Of a stretch of 64,000 nt of DNA, positions 3,494 to 29,092 are shown one piece after another (position 1 is the stretch's first letter; each line of letters begins with the position of its first letter). The stretch is from Hyphomicrobiales bacterium (GTDB taxonomy: Bacteria; Pseudomonadota; Alphaproteobacteria; Rhizobiales; Beijerinckiaceae): assembly GCA_028290405.1 (NCBI GenBank), contig JAQGJX010000089.1, positions 12 through 64,011 on the forward strand. Direction: 5' to 3'. A program made the position numbers and the translations under genes. Below the pieces are notes generated by a model, which ran no database searches, was not told the DNA's origin, and saw only the letters and a program-made list of their open reading frames with translations.

Positions 3494-4060
3494 TCATTCG
3501 GGAAATCGCGGCAGGGCGGTCTCGCCGGCCGGGGGCGCGACGCGGGCGACGTTCATGGTCAGCGCCAGCAATTGATAATAGCCGACGATGCCGCACAGAT
3601 CGATTACGCCCTTCTCGTCGAACGCCGCCAGGGCGCGCGCATACGTGGCGTCGCTCACCCGGCGCGTGTTCAGCGCTTCGCTCACGAAGTCCCATACGAT
3701 CTGCTCGTCGTGCGTCAGCGCAGTGGGCCTGCGTCCGTCGAGGATCGCCGCGATCGTGTCCTCCGTGACGCCCGCCGCCAGGGCGTGCTTGCGGTGCGCG
3801 CCCCATTCGAAATCCTGCGTCCAGTGGCGGGCCACCAGCAGGATGGCGAATTCGCTCAGGCGGCCCGAGATCGTGCAGCGGTAGCGCAGGTATTCGCCCA
3901 TGTGCTGCGCGCGCGTCAGCAGTTCCGGCGAGCGCACGAACACGTGCCAGGGGCCCGAGAACCCCACCTTGCGCGTGGCGACGAAATCGTCGTGCGCAGC
4001 CTTCTGTTCGGGCGTGTAGGCGTCGGCCGGCAGGGGCGGCAGGCGGGTCGTGGTCATCAT
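3494..4060 (-). CDS. Carboxymuconolactone decarboxylase/AhpD family protein
   Basis: Likely start ATG 4060 (ATGA overlap with the rluC stop). Motifs RLPPL, GPWHVFVRSPEL, GEYLRY, EFAILLVARHWTQDFEWGAH and GIVGYY. Confidence 0.85.
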   Translation of the reverse strand: MMTTTRLPPLPADAYTPEQKAAHDDFVATRKVGFSGPWHVFVRSPELLTRAQHMGEYLRYRCTISGRLSEFAILLVARHWTQDFEWGAHRKHALAAGVTEDTIAAILDGRRPTALTHDEQIVWDFVSEALNTRRVSDATYARALAAFDEKGVIDLCGIVGYYQLLALTMNVARVAPPAGETALPRFPE

Positions 4061-15907: not shown

Positions 15908-17431
15908 TTAACCCGCTTCCGCCAGCAGCGACAACTGCTGCCGGGTCGGCTGCCCGGCGATGTCGGTCAGCGAGGTGGGGTAATCCCCCGTGAAGCAATG
16001 GTCGGTGAACTGCGGCCGCACCGGATCGCGCCCCTCGTAGCCCATGGCGCGGTAGATTCCATCGACGGAGAGGAACGCGAGCGAATCGGCGCCCATGTAT
16101 TTGCGCATGCCCTCAAGGTCGATGACCCCGTCCTTGGACATCTGCGCGGCGAGCAGCTTGTCCTTCTGGGGCGTGTCGATGCCGTAATAGTCCGGGTGCG
16201 TGATAGGCGGGGAGGAGATGCGGAAATGCACCTCTTTCGCGCCCGCGTCGCGCATCATCTGCACGATCTTCACCGACGTAGTGCCGCGCACGATGGAATC
16301 GTCGATCAGCACGATGCGCTTGTCTTTCACCACGCAGCGGTTCGCGCTGTGCTTGAGGCGCACTCCAAGCTCGCGGATGGATTGGGTCGGCTCGATGAAC
16401 GTGCGGCCCACGTAGTGGTTGCGGATGATGCCAAGCTCGAACGGCACGCCCGATTCCTGCGCGTAGCCGATGGCGGCGGGCACGCCGGAATCGGGCACCG
16501 GCACGATCACGTCGGCGTCGATATGCGCCTCGCGGGCCAGCTGCGCGCCCATCTTGCGGCGCACGTCGTAGACCGACCGGCCATGCACGATGGAATCGGG
16601 ACGTGCGAAATAGATGTATTCGAAGATGCACGGGCGCATGGGCTGCGGCGGGAAGGGCTTGTGGCTCTCCAGCCCTTCGTCCGAGATCACCACGACCTCG
16701 CCGTTCTCCACGTCGCGCACGAAGCGGGCGCCGATGATGTCGAGCGCGCAGGTCTCCGACGCGAGAATGTAGCGGCCGTCGAGTTCGCCCAGCACAAGCG
16801 GGCGGATGCCGAGCGGATCGCGAGCGCCGATCAGCTTCTTGTTGGTGAGCGCGACGAGCGAATAGGCGCCCTCGATCTGCCGCACCGCCTCGATGAAGCG
16901 CTCAAGGATGCGCGAGCGGCGGCTGCGGGCGACCAGATGCAGGATCACCTCGGTGTCGGACGTGGACTGGTAGATGGCGCCGTCGCGGATCAGCTCGCGG
17001 CGGATCGACAGAGCGTTGGTGAGGTTGCCGTTGTGGGCGACCGCGAAGCCGCCGCTGTCGAGTTCGGCGAAGAGCGGCTGCACGTTGCGCAGGATGGTCT
17101 CGCCGGTGGTCGAATAGCGCACGTGCCCGACGGCGGCCGACCCCGGCAGGCGCTCGATCGTGGCGCGCTGGGAGAAATGCTCGCTCACGAGGCCCATGCG
17201 CCGCTCGGACGAAAAGCGCCGTCCGTCGAAGGTGCAGATGCCCGCCGCCTCCTGGCCGCGATGCTGGAGCGCATGAAGGCCAAGCGCCGTGATGGCGGCG
17301 GCGTCCGGATGGCCGAAGATCCCGAAGACGCCGCACTCCTCGCGCAGCCTGTCGCCGTCCAGATCCCAATCGTCGTTTCGGCTGGACTCCTGGTCCGCCA
17401 AGAACACGTCAGAGCCGGTCACGTGCGCCAT
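15908..17431 (-). CDS. purF: Amidophosphoribosyltransferase
   Basis: EECGVFG processing site, LQHRGQEAAGI, GHVRYST, AHNGNL and VLIDDSIVRGTT. Confidence 0.97.
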   Translation of the reverse strand: MAHVTGSDVFLADQESSRNDDWDLDGDRLREECGVFGIFGHPDAAAITALGLHALQHRGQEAAGICTFDGRRFSSERRMGLVSEHFSQRATIERLPGSAAVGHVRYSTTGETILRNVQPLFAELDSGGFAVAHNGNLTNALSIRRELIRDGAIYQSTSDTEVILHLVARSRRSRILERFIEAVRQIEGAYSLVALTNKKLIGARDPLGIRPLVLGELDGRYILASETCALDIIGARFVRDVENGEVVVISDEGLESHKPFPPQPMRPCIFEYIYFARPDSIVHGRSVYDVRRKMGAQLAREAHIDADVIVPVPDSGVPAAIGYAQESGVPFELGIIRNHYVGRTFIEPTQSIRELGVRLKHSANRCVVKDKRIVLIDDSIVRGTTSVKIVQMMRDAGAKEVHFRISSPPITHPDYYGIDTPQKDKLLAAQMSKDGVIDLEGMRKYMGADSLAFLSVDGIYRAMGYEGRDPVRPQFTDHCFTGDYPTSLTDIAGQPTRQQLSLLAEAG

Positions 17432-17650: not shown

Positions 17651-18232
17651 TCAGCGGCGCGCGGGCGGGGCGGGGGCGGCGCGCCCGTCGGACTCGCCGT
17701 CCGGCGGGGTCTCGTCCTCGCGGCCGCGCTTCATGCGTTCCTGGAACGCGTTCAGCGGATCGTCCGGCAGGACCGATTTCAGGTATTCGCCGCCATCCGC
17801 CAGCCAGGGCCGGGTCTTGGCGGTCTTCACCCACTCTGGCTGCGTCTTGTCCGGCACCAGCCAGTTGAAGAACAGGAAGGCCACCACGCACAAGAGCACC
17901 CCGCGTGCGGCGCCGAAGACGAAGCCCAGCGAGCGGTCGAGCGCGCCCACTTTCGAATCGAGGATCGCGTCCGAGATCCGCACCGTGATGAGCGATACGA
18001 GCACCAGCGTCACGAGGAACACGGCCCCGATGGCCACGCCCAGAGCGATCGAATCCTTTGCGATGTGCGGCTTGATGTAGGGCAGCAGCAGCGGATGGAA
18101 GTAGAACGCCGCGAACGCCGCAGCCGCCCAGGAGGCGATGGCGAGAACCTCGCGGGTGAAGCCCCGCAACATCGAAAGCAGGCCCGAAACGAGCACGACA
18201 GCGATAAGACCAAGGTCGAGATAAGAGGGCAT
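17651..18232 (-). CDS. cvpA: CvpA family (colicin V production) membrane protein
   Basis: RGFTREVL and LDRSLGFVFGAARG motifs; lies directly upstream of purF. Confidence 0.92.
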   Translation of the reverse strand: MPSYLDLGLIAVVLVSGLLSMLRGFTREVLAIASWAAAAFAAFYFHPLLLPYIKPHIAKDSIALGVAIGAVFLVTLVLVSLITVRISDAILDSKVGALDRSLGFVFGAARGVLLCVVAFLFFNWLVPDKTQPEWVKTAKTRPWLADGGEYLKSVLPDDPLNAFQERMKRGREDETPPDGESDGRAAPAPPARR

Positions 18233-18381
18233 CGAACGGGATTCCGCACTGGGGGCGAAGGAATGAGGATGCTGCGTGCGCCGCTCAGGGCAAATCAATA
18301 AACGAGTCGCGCGTGGGTCTTATACATACGTGACGTCCGAGCGTCACCCCGCCGTTCACAAACCGGCGCCCCCGGAAAGCA

Positions 18382-19872
18382 TTACTCCCTGTCAGCGCCG
18401 GCCAAGGCGGGCCTGCGGCCGCGGGGCTCGCCCCTTTGCGCGCCGCGTTCGTCCCTGTCTCGTCCATCGTCCCTGTCTCGCCCGCTGTCCCCGCGCGGCC
18501 GCGAGCGCGCGGCGATCTCGGCCACGAGCTGGGCGATATGGGCGCAGGTCGCCACCGCCAGCGGTCCTTTCTCCTGGCCCTCCAGCGAGCCGGGCGGCGC
18601 GACGGCGGCGCTGAATCCCAGCTTGGCCGCTTCCTTCAGTCGCTGCCCGCCGTGGGCGACCGGGCGCACGGCGCCCGACAGGCCGATTTCGCCGAAATAG
18701 ACGCCGTCGCCCGGCAGGACCGCGCCGGTGAGCGAGGACACGAGAGCGGCCGCGGCCGCCAGGTCCGCCGCCGGCTCGTCGATGCGCAGGCCGCCCGCCA
18801 CGTTGAGGTAGATGTCGTGCTGCCCGAGCCTGAGGCCGCCATGGGCCTCCAGCACCGCCAGCACCATGGAGAGGCGCGAGGGATCCCAGCCGACGACCGC
18901 CCGGCGGGGCGTGCCCAGCGACGTCGGGGCCACGAGGGCCTGGATCTCCACCAGCATGGGGCGAGTGCCCTCCATGCCGGCGAACACGGCCGCGCCGGGC
19001 GCGGAGGCGTCCCGGCCCGACAGGAACAGGGCGGACGGGTTGCCGACTTCGCTCAGGCCCGCGCCGGTCATTTCGAAGACGCCGATCTCGTCCGTCGGCC
19101 CGAAGCGGTTCTTCACCGCGCGCAGGATGCGGAAATGATGCGCGCCGTCCCCCTCGAAGGAGACGACCGCGTCCACCATGTGCTCCACGACGCGGGGACC
19201 GGCGATCTGGCCGTCCTTCGTCACGTGGCCCACCATGATGACGCACGCGCCCGTGGTCTTGGCGTAGCGGATCAGCGCCTGCGCGGAGCTGCGCACCTGC
19301 GTCACCGTGCCAGGCGCGGCCTCCGCCATGTCGGTCCACATGGTCTGGATCGAATCGATCACCACCAGGGACGGGCAGGGGCCGCGCTGAAGGGTGGCGA
19401 CGATGTCCTCGACGCTGGTTTCCGCCGCCAGCTCCACGGGCGCGTCCGACAGCCCAAGCCGCGCGGCGCGCAGGCGCACCTGCGCCACCGCCTCTTCGCC
19501 CGAGATGTAGGCCACCCGGCGGCCCAGCAACGCCAGGCGCGCGCAGGCCTGGATGAGCAGCGACGATTTGCCGATGCCCGGCTCGCCGCCGATGAGGATG
19601 ACCGAGCCCGGCACGAACCCGCCGCCCGTCACCCGGTCCAGCTCGCCGATGCCCGACAGGATGCGCGGCGCTTCCTTGTTGGCGCCCTGGAGCGACTCGA
19701 GCGCGAAGACGCGGCCCTTGCCGGCTCCCCGCACCGCGCGCGCGCCGATGCCCGACGAGCTGGCTTCCTCCGTCATGGAGTTCCACTCGCCGCAGCTTTC
19801 GCACTTGCCCTGCCACTTCTGGGCGACGGCGCCGCAATTCTGGCAAACGTAGGAGGCGCGCGCCTTGGTCAT
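18382..19872 (-). CDS. radA: DNA repair protein RadA/Sms
   Basis: Zn finger CQNCG..KWQGKCESC, GGEPGIGKS, KNRFG motif and Lon-like C-domain. Confidence 0.96.
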   Translation of the reverse strand: MTKARASYVCQNCGAVAQKWQGKCESCGEWNSMTEEASSSGIGARAVRGAGKGRVFALESLQGANKEAPRILSGIGELDRVTGGGFVPGSVILIGGEPGIGKSSLLIQACARLALLGRRVAYISGEEAVAQVRLRAARLGLSDAPVELAAETSVEDIVATLQRGPCPSLVVIDSIQTMWTDMAEAAPGTVTQVRSSAQALIRYAKTTGACVIMVGHVTKDGQIAGPRVVEHMVDAVVSFEGDGAHHFRILRAVKNRFGPTDEIGVFEMTGAGLSEVGNPSALFLSGRDASAPGAAVFAGMEGTRPMLVEIQALVAPTSLGTPRRAVVGWDPSRLSMVLAVLEAHGGLRLGQHDIYLNVAGGLRIDEPAADLAAAAALVSSLTGAVLPGDGVYFGEIGLSGAVRPVAHGGQRLKEAAKLGFSAAVAPPGSLEGQEKGPLAVATCAHIAQLVAEIAARSRPRGDSGRDRDDGRDRDERGAQRGEPRGRRPALAGADRE

Positions 19873-19876
19873 CGGA

Positions 19877-20089
19877 TCAGGCGCACAGGCGCGCGTCGGC
19901 GCCGACGCGGATATAGGCCCGCAGGTCCGCCAGCTGGGTGTCGAGCGCCGCCTCTGCGGCGCGCAATTCGTCCAGCGCCGCCTGGATGGAGGCGGTGGCC
20001 TCCGAAAAGCTGCGGGGCGGCGGCAGGCGGCGGGAGAAACGCTCCGCGCACGGAATGACGCTGTGGTTGACTGAATCCGGGCCGGACAT
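19877..20089 (-). CDS. Small hypothetical protein (70 aa), predicted amphipathic/coiled-coil C-half, in front of radA
   Basis: Strong RBS GAGGAG 6 nt before ATG 20089; stop 4 nt before the radA ATG; sequence MSGPDSVNHS...SIQAALDELRAAEAALDTQLADLRAYIRVGADARLCA. Confidence 0.7.
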   Translation of the reverse strand: MSGPDSVNHSVIPCAERFSRRLPPPRSFSEATASIQAALDELRAAEAALDTQLADLRAYIRVGADARLCA

Positions 20090-20119
20090 GCGCGCCTCCT
20101 CGTCGAATCTCGATGTTGA

Positions 20120-20149
20120 GAACATTACCGGAACAAACCCCGCTGGCAA
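20120..20149 (-). promoter_or_regulatory. Sigma70-like promoter (TTGCCA-N16-TAATGT) overlapped by an alphaproteobacterial LexA box GTTC-N7-GTTC
   Basis: Plus strand GAAC-attaccg-GAAC at 20120-20134; -10 at 20127-20122 and -35 at 20149-20144 on the minus strand. Confidence 0.8.
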
Positions 20150-20264
20150 GCCCTTTCGCGCACCCTCGCCGGGCAGGTTGTTCAACCCTCGCTTTTCCGG
20201 CTACACACGAGCCAGAAGGGGCCCCGCGCAGAGGCTCCGCGGCGTATGATCAGGCGAGGAAGCA

Positions 20265-21311
20265 ATGCAGATCGGATTATTCGACCATCTCGAGCGCAGC
20301 CCGGACAGGCCTTTGTCGACCCAGTTCGACGAGCGGCTCGAGTTCGCCGTGGCGGCGGACGACGCGGGCTTCTACGGCCTGCACGTCGCCGAACACCATT
20401 GCTCGCCGCTGAACACCATTCCGGTCCCGGGCGTGTGGCTTGCGGCGGTGGCGCGCGCCACCAAGCGCCTGCGCTTCGGGCCGCTGGTCTACCTGCTGCC
20501 GCTCTATTCGCCGCTGCGACTGGCGGAAGAAATCTGCATGCTGGACCACCTCAGCCGGGGCCGTTTCGAGTGCGGCGTGGGACGCGGCGTGTCGCCGTTC
20601 GAGCTCGCCTACCACAAGATCAAGCACGAGGATTCGCGCGACATCTTCAAGGACGCCTACGAGTGCCTGAAGGCCGCCCTGGGCAACGAGACGTTCAGCT
20701 ACGAAAGCGAGCGCTACCAGTACAAGAACGTGCCGATGCCGCTGCGCCCGTTGCAGCAGCCGTGGCCGGCGTTCTGGTACGGTTCCTCGAACGAGGAAGG
20801 CTCCATCTGGGCCGGCGAGCAGGGCATGCACTTCACCACGAACGGCCCGCCCGAGCGCGCCAAGACCAACATCGACGCGTACCGCGCCGCGCTCGCCAAG
20901 CGCGGCGGCGCTGCGCAGCCGAAGGCTGACTTCGCAGGCGGCGCGGCCATCGGCATGATGCGCCACATCGTCGTGGCGGACACCGACGCGGAAGCCGTGC
21001 GCATCGCCAAGCCCGCTCTGGAGCACCACGCGGGTTCGCTCAACTGGATCCGCAAGCTCAACGGCTCAAGCGAGTTCACCAATCGCACCAATGTGCATCG
21101 CGGCGAAAGCTTCGAGAGCTGGCGCGACATGGGCATGGTCATCGCCGGTTCGCCCGAGACCGTGGTGCGCGAGATCACCAAGCAGGTGGGCTTCACCGGC
21201 GTCAATTATCTCATCACCTACCTGTTCTTCGGCACGATGTCGGCGGCGGACGCGCACCGCTCGCTGCAATTGTTCCGCACGCAAGTGATGCCGAAGATCA
21301 AGGATCTTTAG
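20265..21311 (+). CDS. LLM-class flavin-dependent oxidoreductase (luciferase-like monooxygenase)
   Basis: AEHH, PLYSPLRLAEEICMLDHLSRGRFECGVGRG motifs. Confidence 0.9.
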   Translation: MQIGLFDHLERSPDRPLSTQFDERLEFAVAADDAGFYGLHVAEHHCSPLNTIPVPGVWLAAVARATKRLRFGPLVYLLPLYSPLRLAEEICMLDHLSRGRFECGVGRGVSPFELAYHKIKHEDSRDIFKDAYECLKAALGNETFSYESERYQYKNVPMPLRPLQQPWPAFWYGSSNEEGSIWAGEQGMHFTTNGPPERAKTNIDAYRAALAKRGGAAQPKADFAGGAAIGMMRHIVVADTDAEAVRIAKPALEHHAGSLNWIRKLNGSSEFTNRTNVHRGESFESWRDMGMVIAGSPETVVREITKQVGFTGVNYLITYLFFGTMSAADAHRSLQLFRTQVMPKIKDL

Positions 21312-21370: not shown

Positions 21371-22510
21371 CTACGCGCCCAGATACACCCGGCAATACCT
21401 GCGCCCCAGGGCGGTCAGGATCTCATACCCGATGGAGCCTGCGCGGGCCGCCAGATCGTCCACGCCGATCTCGTGGCCCAGCAGTTCCACCAGCGCGCCG
21501 GGGGCGGCCGCATCCTGCGGCGCCTGAGTGACGTCGAGCACGATCAGGTCCATCGACACGCGGCCGACGAACGGGCAGCGCACGCCGGCCAGCATCGCTT
21601 CGCCGCCGGGCCTGCCGTCGACGCCCGACGCAGCGCGGGGAATCCCGTCCGCGTAGCCGACGCCGATCGTCGCCAGCGTGCGGGGCCCGGGCGCGTGCCA
21701 TGTCGCGTTGTAGCCGACGCTCGCCATCGCCTCCACGCGGCGCACCTGCAGGATGGGCGCTTGCAGGCGCACCACGGGCCGCATGGGGTTTGGCGCTGCG
21801 GGCGTGGGGTTTCCGCCATAGAGCGCGTAGCCCGCGCGCGCGAGGTCGTAATGCGGCCGCGCGCTCAGGAACACGCCCGACGAATTGCTCATGCTCGCCC
21901 GCGCCCGTGGGAACAACGCGCGCGCCCGCTCGAAAAGCGCGATTTGCGCCGCGTTGAGCGGTTCGTCCGCGACCTCCGAGGACGCAAAATGGCTCATCAC
22001 GAGATCGACCGCGCCGGCGTTGGGGTCCGCGGCGACCTGCGCCGCCTCGTCAAGGCTCATGCCCAGCCGGTTCATGCCGGTGTCCACATGCAGCGCCGCC
22101 GGAGCGCCGGGCGCGCAACGCAGCCAGGTCTCCCATTCCGCCAGCGAGCCGATGACGGGCCTTGCGGCGCACGCCAGCAGCGCGGCGGCGCCGGCCGCCC
22201 CCCAGGCGATGCCGTTCAACGCATAGACGCGCGCATGCGCGAACGCCGACAGCGCGGCGCGGGCGCGGGCGGCTTCGCTGGCGTGGGCGACGAAGTACGT
22301 GGCGCAGCCCGCCGCCGCGAGCGCCTTCGCGGCAGGCTCAAGTCCGATTCCATAAGCGTCCGCTTTGACGACGGCGGCGCATTCCGCCGGGGCCGTGCGG
22401 GCCGCCATGGCGCGCCAGTTGTCGACCAGCGCCGCAAGGTCGATGGTGAGGATGGCCTGCGCCTGCTCCGGCGCGATGGCGTCTCGCGGAAAGGCTTGCG
22501 GCGCAGGCAT
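21371..22510 (-). CDS. alr: Alanine racemase
   Basis: AVVKADAYGIG PLP-lysine motif, LHVDTGMNRLG, GYADG and GRVSMD. Confidence 0.96.
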   Translation of the reverse strand: MPAPQAFPRDAIAPEQAQAILTIDLAALVDNWRAMAARTAPAECAAVVKADAYGIGLEPAAKALAAAGCATYFVAHASEAARARAALSAFAHARVYALNGIAWGAAGAAALLACAARPVIGSLAEWETWLRCAPGAPAALHVDTGMNRLGMSLDEAAQVAADPNAGAVDLVMSHFASSEVADEPLNAAQIALFERARALFPRARASMSNSSGVFLSARPHYDLARAGYALYGGNPTPAAPNPMRPVVRLQAPILQVRRVEAMASVGYNATWHAPGPRTLATIGVGYADGIPRAASGVDGRPGGEAMLAGVRCPFVGRVSMDLIVLDVTQAPQDAAAPGALVELLGHEIGVDDLAARAGSIGYEILTALGRRYCRVYLGA

Positions 22511-22511
22511 T

Positions 22512-24014
22512 TTACATCCGCTCCGGCAGCGCGTCCTCGCGCGCTAGATTGGAGAAGCGCGTCACTTCCGCATCGAACTGGAGGTCCACCGTGCCCGTGG
22601 GGCCGTGGCGCTGCTTGCCGATGATGACCTCCGCGCGCCCGTGCGCGCGCTCCATCTCGGCCAGCCAGTTGGTGAACTCCTCGGTGCCTTCGCGCGGCTG
22701 CTTGTTCTTGATGTAGTACTCTTCGCGATACACGAACATCACCACGTCGGCGTCCTGCTCGATGGAGCCGGATTCGCGCAGGTCCGAGAGTTGCGGGCGC
22801 TTGTCGTCGCGCGATTCCACCTGGCGCGAAAGCTGCGACAGCGCGATCACCGGCGCGCTGAGCTCCTTGGCCAGAGCTTTCAGGCCCGTGGTGATTTCAG
22901 TGAGCTCCTGCACGCGGTTAGAGCCCGCGGATTTGGAGCCCGACAACAACTGGAGATAGTCCACCACCAGCACGTCGAGGCCCTTCTGGCGCTTCAGGCG
23001 CCGCGCGCGCGCCACCAGCTGCGCGATGGAGATGCCGCCGGTCTGGTCGATGTAGAACGGGATCTGCTGCATCTCGCGCGCCGCTTCCGAGATGCGGTGG
23101 AACTCGTGGTCCTGGATGTCGCCGCGGCGGATCTTGTAGGACGGCACGCCCGATTGCTCGGCGATGATACGCGTGGCGAGCTGCTCGGCGGACATTTCCA
23201 GCGAGAAGAAGCCCACGATGCCGCCGTTCTTGGGCACGTGCACGCCGTCTGGGCGCACTTCGTACTCATACGCCTTGGCGATGTTGAAGGCGATGTTGGT
23301 GGCCAGCGCCGTCTTGCCCATGCCCGGGCGGCCGGCGACGATGACAAGATCGGACTGTTGCAGGCCGCCCAACTTCGCGTCGAGGTCGGTCATGCCGGTG
23401 CTGATGCCCGACAGCTTGCCGTCGCGTTCATAGGCGCGCGCAGCTGTGTCGATGGCCGTCGTCAGCGCTTGCGAGAAGGACTGGAAACCGCCGTCGTAGC
23501 GGCCCTGTTCGGCGATCTCGTAAAGCCGGCGCTCGGCTTCCTCGATCTGCGCGCGCGGGTTGAGGTCGACGGGCGAATCATAGGCGGTGTTGACGATCTC
23601 CTCGCCGATGCCGATGAGGTTTCGCCGCACCGCGAGGTCGTAGATGGACCGACCGTAGTCCTCCGCGTTGATGACCGTGGTGGCTTCCGCCGCAAGGCGC
23701 GCGAGGTATTGCGGCACCGTCATGCCGCCCAGATCGTGTTCGCCCAGGAAGGTCTTCAACGTCACCGGCGAGGCGATCTTGCCGGCGCGGATCAACTGCC
23801 CGCCGACCTCGAACACGCGGCGGTGGATCTCTTCGTGGAAGTGCTCGGCGCGCAGGAAGTCGGACACGCGGTCGAAGGCGTCGTTGTTGACGAGAATGGC
23901 GCCCAGCAGCGCCTGCTCCGCCTCGATGTTGTGCGGCGCGAGGCGATAGGCGGGCTGATCCGCCGGGTTGGGCAGAAGAGCGAACCTGCTGGCGATTTGT
24001 TCGACGGCGGCCAT
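22512..24014 (-). CDS. dnaB: Replicative DNA helicase (no intein)
   Basis: APHNIEAEQALLG, AGRPGMGKT, FSLEMSAEQL, VDYLQL and LSDLRESGSIEQDAD. Confidence 0.97.
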   Translation of the reverse strand: MAAVEQIASRFALLPNPADQPAYRLAPHNIEAEQALLGAILVNNDAFDRVSDFLRAEHFHEEIHRRVFEVGGQLIRAGKIASPVTLKTFLGEHDLGGMTVPQYLARLAAEATTVINAEDYGRSIYDLAVRRNLIGIGEEIVNTAYDSPVDLNPRAQIEEAERRLYEIAEQGRYDGGFQSFSQALTTAIDTAARAYERDGKLSGISTGMTDLDAKLGGLQQSDLVIVAGRPGMGKTALATNIAFNIAKAYEYEVRPDGVHVPKNGGIVGFFSLEMSAEQLATRIIAEQSGVPSYKIRRGDIQDHEFHRISEAAREMQQIPFYIDQTGGISIAQLVARARRLKRQKGLDVLVVDYLQLLSGSKSAGSNRVQELTEITTGLKALAKELSAPVIALSQLSRQVESRDDKRPQLSDLRESGSIEQDADVVMFVYREEYYIKNKQPREGTEEFTNWLAEMERAHGRAEVIIGKQRHGPTGTVDLQFDAEVTRFSNLAREDALPERM

Positions 24015-29031: not shown

Positions 29032-29092
29032 GAACACACAGAGAACAAAGCGCGTAACCCCCGCTGACGCAAGGGGAGAACTATTCGTGAAC
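29032..29092. promoter_or_regulatory. Two tandem LexA boxes GAAC-N7-GAAC in a convergent intergenic gap
   Basis: GAAC-acacaga-GAAC (29032-29046) and GAAC-tattcgt-GAAC (29078-29092). Confidence 0.7.

What the first reader, a model, noticed from the sequence alone, without database searches (positions are those of the whole stretch)
19877..20149. SOS-boxed 70-aa protein inserted in front of radA, putting radA under LexA control
The usual alr-radA junction is interrupted by an LLM gene and a small ORF with a strong RBS. A perfect GTTC-N7-GTTC box covers the -10 of a TTGCCA-N16-TAATGT promoter. The ORF stops 4 nt before radA, so radA is probably co-transcribed. The C-half (SIQAALDELRAAEAALDTQLADLRAY) has heptad periodicity. 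Small SOS-induced proteins are often division inhibitors or repair modulators, and I cannot assign this one to a family. It is a candidate new SOS effector, possibly a RadA partner.
Basis: partly seen in the sequence, partly recalled or inferred. Interest (0 to 1): 0.72.

Follow-up and report, generated by a model that had tools for sequence, protein, structure and literature searches.

The report
SOS-boxed small helical gene coupled to radA
A real, conserved 70-residue single-helix protein of no known family sits behind a LexA (DNA-damage) operator and is read just ahead of the repair helicase gene radA in an uncultured genus of Beijerinckiaceae, so both genes are probably switched on together by DNA damage; what the small protein does is untested.

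Summary
On the minus strand: TTGCCA-N16-TAATGT, a perfect GTTC-N7-GTTC box (20120-20134) over the -10, GAGGAGG, a 70-aa ORF (19877-20089), then radA 4 nt after its stop.

- **The ORF is a gene.** Homologues lie directly upstream of radA in 18 of 24 same-genus genomes. In-frame dN/dS is 0.38. The helix core is 57% identical; the tails 14-15%.
- **The box is functional-looking.** It is perfect in all 23 aligned orthologous promoters, while flanks are about 50% conserved. Perfect boxes with an AT-rich spacer, as here, precede recA, uvrA, comM and two radical-SAM repair genes in this genome.
- **radA depends on this unit.** radA lacks its own Shine-Dalgarno in 16 of 19 loci, and the stop-to-start gap is -1 to 33 nt.
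- **radA is a target.** One sister species lost the ORF but kept the box 45 nt before radA.
- **The LLM gene is separate.** It is a clade-specific insertion.
- **No family.** Pfam, NCBIfam, PHROGs and PDB give nothing; only about 50 clusters exist among 1.84 billion representatives.

LexA control and co-expression are well supported. A role as RadA partner is only inferred. No expression data could be obtained.

The parts
20144..20149 (-). -35 hexamer TTGCCA of the operon promoter
   Evidence: Read directly. A CT(T/C/A)GCCA- or TGGACA-like hexamer lies 16-17 nt before the -10 in most orthologous loci.
20120..20134 (-). LexA operator, alphaproteobacterial type GTTC-N7-GTTC (GTTCCGGTAATGTTC). 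It contains the -10 TAATGT at 20122-20127.
   Evidence: Found. Perfect in 19 of 19 genus loci and in 4 further loci. The 8 fixed bases are 100% conserved against about 0.46-0.51 for the flanks, and the N7 consensus is cTGTAtT. Perfect boxes, likewise with AT-rich spacers, lie upstream of recA, uvrA, comM and two radical-SAM repair genes in the same genome. lexA is present.
20105..20109 (.). GATTC (GANTC, the CcrM methylation motif) in the predicted start-site and 5' leader region
   Evidence: A GANTC lies within 35 nt after the box in 16 of 19 genus loci, and at 7-16 nt in 15 of them. The genome density predicts about 0.05 per 35-nt window. It is also present in the diverged and box-only loci.
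20095..20101 (-). Shine-Dalgarno GAGGAGG, 5 nt before the ATG
   Evidence: Read. A GAGG- or GGAG-like element sits before the start codon in most orthologues.
19877..20089 (-). Small ORF of 70 aa (P0001). It has a disordered N-terminus, one long amphipathic helix (residues 26-69), and an invariant face L42 R43 E46 L49 Q52 L53 R57.
   Evidence: Translation. Homologues in 18 of 24 same-genus genomes, always directly upstream of radA. Alignment A1. dN/dS 0.38 in frame. Core identity 57% against 14-15% for the tails. AlphaFold2 model. No Pfam, NCBIfam, PHROG or PDB match.
18382..19872 (-). radA/sms (496 aa). It starts 4 nt after the small ORF's stop and has no Shine-Dalgarno of its own.
   Evidence: TIGR00416 at E 1e-161. 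The junction has no SD-like motif here, nor in 15 other loci of the 19; the stop-to-start gap ranges from -1 to 33 nt. No promoter-like site between or inside the two genes, and the only terminator-like hits lie deep inside radA at chance level.
20265..21311 (+). Divergent luciferase-like monooxygenase gene. It is context only: a clade-specific insertion between alr and the SOS promoter.
   Evidence: PF00296 at E 2e-50. Present only in L001, L011, L015, L016 and L033-L034; other same-genus loci have alr directly before the promoter.

Best explanation
This is a LexA-repressed two-gene unit, small ORF plus radA.

**Proposed mechanism**
1. A sigma-70-type promoter has its -10 inside a GTTC-N7-GTTC LexA operator. 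In undamaged cells LexA occludes the promoter.
2. After DNA damage, RecA-stimulated LexA cleavage releases the promoter.
3. The transcript has a short leader, about 20 nt as inferred from the -10 position. It carries a conserved GANTC and a strong Shine-Dalgarno.
4. The 70-aa protein is translated first.
5. Ribosomes that terminate 4 nt before the radA ATG re-initiate there, because radA has no Shine-Dalgarno of its own.

In this window the opposite-strand LLM gene cuts radA off from alr. The SOS promoter is therefore probably radA's only promoter.

**The product**
It is a soluble, mildly acidic protein. It has a fast-evolving disordered N-terminus, one conserved five-heptad amphipathic helix, and a variable tail. 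The most likely role (inferred, about 35-40%) is a coiled-coil accessory factor. It would act with RadA, or with RecA-RadA, at recombination intermediates, and would be made in fixed proportion to RadA.

**Shown by sequence and comparison:** the gene is real, the operator and promoter layout are conserved, and the link to radA is obligate.

**Inferred:** LexA binding, damage induction, translational coupling and the protein's target.
For: - **Anatomy:**
- **Gene conservation:** homologues in 18 of 24 same-genus genomes, all immediately upstream of radA.
- **Distribution:** 57 hits at E<=0.001 among 1.84 billion representatives, of which about 50 are small family members.
- **Diverged members:** the 100-115-aa forms lie in the same alr-small-radA-cvpA-purF order where the contig extends that far. 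Each has a box starting 44-49 nt before its ATG, leaving a gap of about 29-34 nt.
- **Coding test:** dN/dS 0.38 in frame against 0.8-1.7 in the other two frames of the same strand, where those frames are open at all. GC3 is 0.89.
- **Operator:** box perfect in all 23 aligned loci, with flanks only about 50% conserved.
- **Regulon coherence in this genome:** perfect boxes with AT-rich spacers precede recA, uvrA, comM/yifB and two repair-linked radical-SAM genes. lexA is present with a one-mismatch box.
- **Coupling:** radA lacks an SD in 16 of 19 loci and gaps run from -1 to 33 nt.
- **radA as target:** G019, the sister of an ORF-bearing species on the RadA tree (99/95 support), lost the ORF but keeps the box 45 nt before radA.
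- **Protein-level constraint:** helix core 57% identical against 14-15% for the tails, with invariant polar residues. A confident single helix in the model.
Against: - There is no expression, LexA-binding or interaction evidence.
- The promoter matches the E. coli consensus at only 8 of 12 positions and is not called by the scan.
- Perfect boxes occur at about chance frequency genome-wide, so the case rests on conservation.
- The ORF was lost at least twice within the genus: G019 keeps the box, and G022 lost the whole module. RadA therefore does not strictly need it.
- A single helix gives no structural clue to a partner.
- radA also lacks an SD where no small ORF precedes it, so the absence of an SD is not specific evidence for coupling.
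Confidence: 0.7

Rival explanations
1. The small ORF is mainly a cis-acting translational coupler or leader. Its translation delivers ribosomes to the SD-less radA start, and the peptide has no function in trans.
For: - radA has no SD in 16 of 19 loci, and stop-to-start gaps run from -1 to 33 nt.
- Elsewhere in the family radA sits 3-50 nt behind alr, so it is habitually coupled to whatever lies upstream.
- The ORF was lost in G019 with the box retained.
- The N- and C-terminal parts evolve freely.
Against: - A pure coupler needs no particular amino-acid sequence. Here a 32-residue helix is 57% identical, with invariant L, R, E and Q positions. Most of them persist in the diverged long forms, where only E46 stays strictly invariant. 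dN/dS is 0.38.
- The conserved block ends 10 or more codons before a variable-length tail. That does not fit a stop-proximal arrest peptide.
Confidence: 0.15
2. The small protein is an SOS effector unrelated to RadA biochemistry. It could be a division or replication checkpoint inhibitor, the functional analogue of SulA, SidA or YneA. It would sit at the radA promoter only because that promoter is LexA-controlled.
For: - It is small, LexA-boxed, lineage-restricted and fast-evolving outside one motif, like known checkpoint peptides.
- No SulA homologue was noticed in the window, but this was not searched genome-wide.
Against: - It has no hydrophobic or transmembrane segment. GRAVY is negative in 18 of 19 orthologues, and the helix is amphipathic. 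SidA, DidA, YneA and ChiZ are membrane proteins (my own knowledge).
- There is no Pfam hit to SulA or any other division family.
- It is a single copy and is never found away from radA.
Confidence: 0.12
3. The box is not a working LexA site. It would be conserved because it is simply the promoter's -10 region, and the unit would be constitutive or cell-cycle controlled through the GANTC site via CcrM or GcrA.
For: - The -10 lies inside the box, so the two constraints cannot be separated by sequence alone.
- A GANTC is conserved shortly after the box.
- Perfect boxes occur at about the chance rate genome-wide.
Against: - Both GTTC half-sites are invariant in 23 loci. That includes the upstream half, which lies outside the -10.
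- The same direct repeat marks recA, uvrA and comM in this genome.
- Unrelated Hyphomicrobiales lineages independently carry an AT-rich-spacer box 46-69 nt before radA.
Confidence: 0.05

Closest known systems
Alphaproteobacterial LexA regulon promoters (GTTC-N7-GTTC direct repeat, as described for Caulobacter, Rhodobacter and Sinorhizobium; motif cited in bioRxiv 10.1101/2025.01.26.634973)
   Same: Same operator motif, placed over the -10. The same genome uses it at recA, uvrA and comM.
   Different: radA is not a usual member. Most Beijerinckiaceae and about 90% of the other Hyphomicrobiales sampled have no box before radA. The first gene of the unit is an unannotated orphan.
recA-recX, and DinI: small SOS-induced modulators of a RecA-family ATPase
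   Same: A small protein under LexA control that is expressed with, or acts on, a RecA-fold recombination ATPase. Co-transcription with the ATPase gene resembles recA-recX.
   Different: No sequence relation. No Pfam hit at E<=0.1 for any of 44 members. The small gene lies upstream rather than downstream. The fold is a single coiled-coil helix, not the RecX helical repeat or the DinI alpha/beta fold (those folds are from my own knowledge).
radA-disA operons of Firmicutes and Actinobacteria, where RadA has an operonic protein partner
   Same: radA is co-transcribed with a non-enzymatic-looking partner gene.
   Different: DisA is a roughly 360-aa diadenylate cyclase located downstream of radA. 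This protein is a 70-aa helix located upstream. There is no homology.
SOS checkpoint peptides (SulA, SidA, YneA, ChiZ)
   Same: Small, LexA-controlled and lineage-specific.
   Different: No transmembrane segment, no SulA domain, and an obligate linkage to radA.

Membership tests
LexA (SOS) regulon, alphaproteobacterial type | GTTC-N7-GTTC direct repeat in the promoter region | tested here: met
   Perfect box at 20120-20134 overlapping the -10.
LexA (SOS) regulon, alphaproteobacterial type | Operator conserved at the orthologous position in related genomes | tested here: met
   19 of 19 genus loci plus 4 further loci. Fixed bases are 100% conserved against about 50% for the flanks.
LexA (SOS) regulon, alphaproteobacterial type | The same motif precedes canonical SOS genes in the same genome, and lexA is present | tested here: met
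   recA, uvrA, comM and two radical-SAM repair genes carry it. lexA is at C204 with a one-mismatch box.
LexA (SOS) regulon, alphaproteobacterial type | LexA binding and DNA-damage induction | not testable with these tools
All carriers seen are uncultured MAGs.
DinI / RecX / SulA families | Match to the family profile (Pfam DinI, RecX, SulA) | tested here: not met
   No Pfam family for P0001 at E<=1. None of these families appears among the weak hits of 44 members. No NCBIfam hit.
Membrane SOS division inhibitors (SidA / DidA / YneA type) | A transmembrane segment | tested here: not met
   GRAVY is negative in 18 of 19 orthologues. The only structured element is an amphipathic helix with charged residues throughout.
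Regulatory leader peptide / coupling uORF | A short ORF whose stop abuts the start of the regulated gene, with that gene lacking its own RBS | tested here: met
   Gaps of -1 to 33 nt. No SD before radA in 16 of 19 loci.
Regulatory leader peptide / coupling uORF | Peptide sequence unconstrained, or constrained only next to the stall or stop site | tested here: not met
   The conserved 32-residue helix is separated from the stop by a variable 7-24-residue tail. dN/dS is 0.38.

The most novel reading that the evidence does not exclude
The 70-aa helix would be the founding member of a taxonomically restricted family of dedicated RadA/Sms accessory factors. It would be born in the LexA-controlled 5' leader of radA and made in fixed ratio with the helicase. 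It would load, gate or target RadA on RecA-made recombination intermediates. This would be the first such partner for RadA in Proteobacteria. Its promoter would integrate LexA with CcrM/GcrA methylation state through the conserved GANTC.
Probability: 0.25. Interest if true: 0.65.

Novelty: new variant of a known kind. Interest (0 to 1): 0.45.

Why it matters
- **RadA regulation is poorly understood.** RadA/Sms is a widespread branch-migration helicase whose regulation and partners are little known outside Firmicutes. A conserved small protein that is SOS-controlled and translationally tied to radA is a concrete candidate regulator.
- **It shows LexA regulon rewiring.** radA is recruited into the regulon in some Hyphomicrobiales lineages and not in others.
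- **It may show orphan-gene birth.** The small gene appears between a promoter and the gene that promoter serves.
- **The reach is limited.** The family is confined to one uncultured freshwater Beijerinckiaceae genus and its closest relatives. It was lost at least twice there, so the general significance is modest.

Tried and rejected
- **Family assignment.** Pfam, NCBIfam, PHROGs and PDB-sequence searches of the protein and of a 44-member alignment gave nothing credible.
- **Rosetta-stone fusions to RadA.** The three long hits of the profile search (521-934 aa) are repetitive coiled-coil or TPR proteins, not RadA.
- **RNA element.** Rfam finds nothing in 19700-20400.
- **Wider distribution.** The family was not found in 300 genomes of the order. 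Two weak hits there lie inside large ORFs; one was checked and is not beside radA. It was not found in 400 genomes of the class either. These first-look searches scored only 14-19 candidates per genome, so they are not exhaustive.
- **Genome-contig scan with the single protein.** It found nothing. A 5-sequence alignment found 10 loci, all in MAGs.
- **Literature.** No paper in the library links radA to a LexA box or a small upstream ORF in Alphaproteobacteria.
- **Fold search.** Not run, because the model is a single helix and matches would be meaningless.
- **AlphaFold on a natural read-through fusion of the small ORF and RadA.** Considered and dropped. The tool returns no contacts or PAE, so docking could not be judged.

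Full report
**Anatomy.** The minus strand of the window reads dnaB (22512-24014), alr (21371-22510), a gap, the small ORF (19877-20089), radA (18382-19872), cvpA (17651-18298) and purF (15908-17431). A luciferase-like monooxygenase (LLM) gene lies on the plus strand at 20265-21311, between alr and the small ORF. Upstream of the small ORF the minus strand reads TTGCCA (20144-20149), 16 nt, then TAATGT (20122-20127). The perfect direct repeat GTTCCGGTAATGTTC (20120-20134) encloses the -10. GATTC follows at 20105-20109, GAGGAGG at 20095-20101, and ATG at 20087-20089. The ORF ends TGA at 19877-19879, and radA's ATG is 4 nt further on.

**Is the box more than chance?** On its own it is not. The window holds 5 matches against 1.5 expected. 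The genome holds 97, about the rate the window shuffles predict when scaled up. Conservation settles the question. A whole-genome search found a homologue of the 70-aa protein in 18 of 24 same-genus genomes. In all 19 loci, this one included, the ORF lies directly upstream of radA, and a perfect GTTC-N7-GTTC lies 248-302 nt before the radA start. The gap between box and small-ORF ATG is 24-35 nt in 18 of them. With 23 promoters anchored on the box, the eight fixed bases are 100% conserved. The spacer consensus is cTGTAtT, with four positions at 91% or more. The flanks show only about 0.46-0.51 top-base frequency. A -35-like CTTGCCA or TGGACA sits 16-17 nt before the -10 in most loci.

**Does the motif mark the SOS regulon in this organism?** Among intergenic perfect boxes with AT-rich spacers are those before recA, uvrA, comM/yifB, a PA0069-family radical-SAM gene and a 'DNA modification/repair radical SAM' gene. 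lexA is present, with a one-mismatch box 108 nt upstream.

**Is the ORF a gene?** Yes.
- The alignment of 19 orthologues (A1) shows M1 and an invariant set L42, R43, E46, L49, Q52, L53, R57.
- Pairwise identity is 57% over residues 29-60, against 14-15% in the N-terminal 20 residues and the C-terminal tail.
- Codon analysis gives dN/dS 0.38 in frame. Third positions vary most. The two other frames of the same strand are mostly closed, or score 0.8-1.7 where open. GC3 is 0.89 here.
- AlphaFold2 on a 44-member alignment gives a disordered N-terminus and one helix at 26-69, with pLDDT 97-99 over residues 31-60.
- Hydrophobic residues F28, V35, L42, L49 and L56, with A38-L39, A45-E46, Q52-L53 and Y59-M60, make five heptads.
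- The protein is soluble and mildly acidic, with no hydrophobic segment.

**What family is it?** None that is known.
- Pfam, NCBIfam, PHROGs and PDB-sequence searches are empty for the protein and for all 44 members.
- A profile search of 1.84 billion representatives returns 57 hits. About 50 are 65-135-aa proteins of this family, and three are spurious repeat proteins.
- No source gives any member a name other than 'hypothetical protein'.
- Named carriers are all MAGs labelled Beijerinckiaceae, Rhizobiales or Hyphomicrobiales, many of them from lake bins such as Umea and Erken.
- Diverged 'long forms' of 100-115 aa lie in the same alr-small-radA-cvpA-purF order. Each has a perfect box starting 44-49 nt before its ATG, a gap of about 29-34 nt.
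- On a RadA tree the two long-form loci included (L035, L036) group inside the same radiation, sister to L007 and L012 with 100/98 support. The family is therefore confined to this genus-level clade.
- It was not found in 300 genomes of the order or 400 of the class. Those first-look searches scored only 14-19 candidates per genome.

**Relation to radA.**
- The small ORF's stop lies -1 to 33 nt from the radA start in all 19 loci.
- Sixteen of the 19 have no SD-like motif before radA, while the small ORF has a strong one.
- No promoter-like site lies between or inside the two genes. The only terminator-like hits are deep inside radA, at chance level.
- Co-transcription and termination-reinitiation coupling are thus the simplest reading.
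- One caution applies. radA also lacks an SD where it follows alr by 3-50 nt, and in G019. SD-less coupling therefore appears to be radA's habit in this family.

**History.**
- In most Beijerinckiaceae genera sampled, alr and radA are 3-67 nt apart and there is no box.
- The LLM gene is present only in a sub-clade (L001, L011, L015, L016, L033/L034). Other same-genus genomes have alr followed directly by the promoter and small ORF. The LLM insertion and the small ORF are therefore separate events.
- A box directly before radA, without the ORF, occurs in four other genera of the family at -40 to -148. It also occurs in three of 40 genomes from other families of the order at -46 to -69. A fourth has an inverted GC-rich-spacer match at -46.
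- It also occurs in G019, whose RadA is sister to that of ORF-bearing G017 (99/95 support). G019 keeps the box and the GATTC 45 nt before radA. That is a recent loss of the ORF with LexA control of radA retained.
- G022 lost the whole module, and G013 keeps only a one-mismatch box.
- Two conclusions follow. radA is itself a selected target of the operator. The small protein is dispensable in some backgrounds.

**Mechanism.**
- *Well supported by comparison:* a LexA-occluded promoter drives a bicistronic small-ORF-radA message. In this window the opposite-strand LLM gene isolates radA from alr, so this is probably radA's only promoter.
- *Inferred:* translational coupling.
- *Hypothesis:* the helix acts with RadA or RecA. 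The support is obligate single-copy linkage to radA and a conserved mixed polar and hydrophobic helix face. That pattern argues for a protein-level interaction rather than a mere coupling ORF.
- *Rivals:* a cis-only coupler, an unrelated SOS checkpoint effector, or a non-LexA promoter element. These are weighed in their own sections of this report.

**An extra feature.** A GANTC (CcrM) site lies within 35 nt after the box in 16 of 19 genus loci, and at 7-16 nt in 15 of them. It is also present in most box-only and long-form loci. GANTC is rare in this genome at 1.57 per kb, which predicts about 0.05 per window. This suggests a second input linked to methylation or the cell cycle, or a constrained start site.

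**Limits.** There is no multimer prediction and no cultured carrier. The paper library holds nothing that links radA to a LexA box or an upstream small ORF in Alphaproteobacteria.

**Verdict.** The regulatory interpretation is supported with two corrections. The functional interpretation remains open. This is a new orphan protein family in a known regulatory frame, of moderate interest.

Noticed in passing
window 20105-20109; also L002-L019, L029, L033, L035, L036, L038, L064, L067, L068: A GANTC (CcrM methylation motif, usually GATTC) is conserved between the LexA box and the start codon. It lies within 35 nt after the box in 16 of 19 genus loci, against about 0.05 expected from the genome density. 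This is a possible methylation or GcrA input, or a constrained transcription start.
   Followed up: partly
window 29032-29046 and 29078-29092 (minus strand): Two more perfect GTTC-N7-GTTC boxes lie 46 bp apart. The crude gene map also puts them outside long ORFs.
   Followed up: no
window 18382-18520 (RadA residues about 452-496): RadA carries a C-terminal Arg/Asp/Gly-rich low-complexity tail of about 45 residues. It lies beyond the end of the TIGR00416 match (residue 448). Relatives align only to about residues 455-482.
   Followed up: no
G000 contigs C71:14037 and C112:4409 (loci L050, L052): Perfect LexA boxes precede a PA0069-family radical-SAM gene and a TIGR03916 'DNA modification/repair radical SAM' gene. 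These appear to belong to the SOS regulon of this organism. A 265-aa ORF (L053) and a 173-aa ORF (L050), both without any Pfam family, are also boxed.
   Followed up: partly
L030 (G022, same genus): In this species the box and small-ORF module are absent. Other short ORFs lie immediately upstream of radA, with the stop overlapping radA's ATG. They were not identified.
   Followed up: no
L036 about 3860-3900: A tandem 11-nt repeat (GTAGTTCGCCT, three copies) upstream of the promoter creates two extra GTTC-N7-GTTC matches in one long-form locus. They are probably incidental.
   Followed up: no
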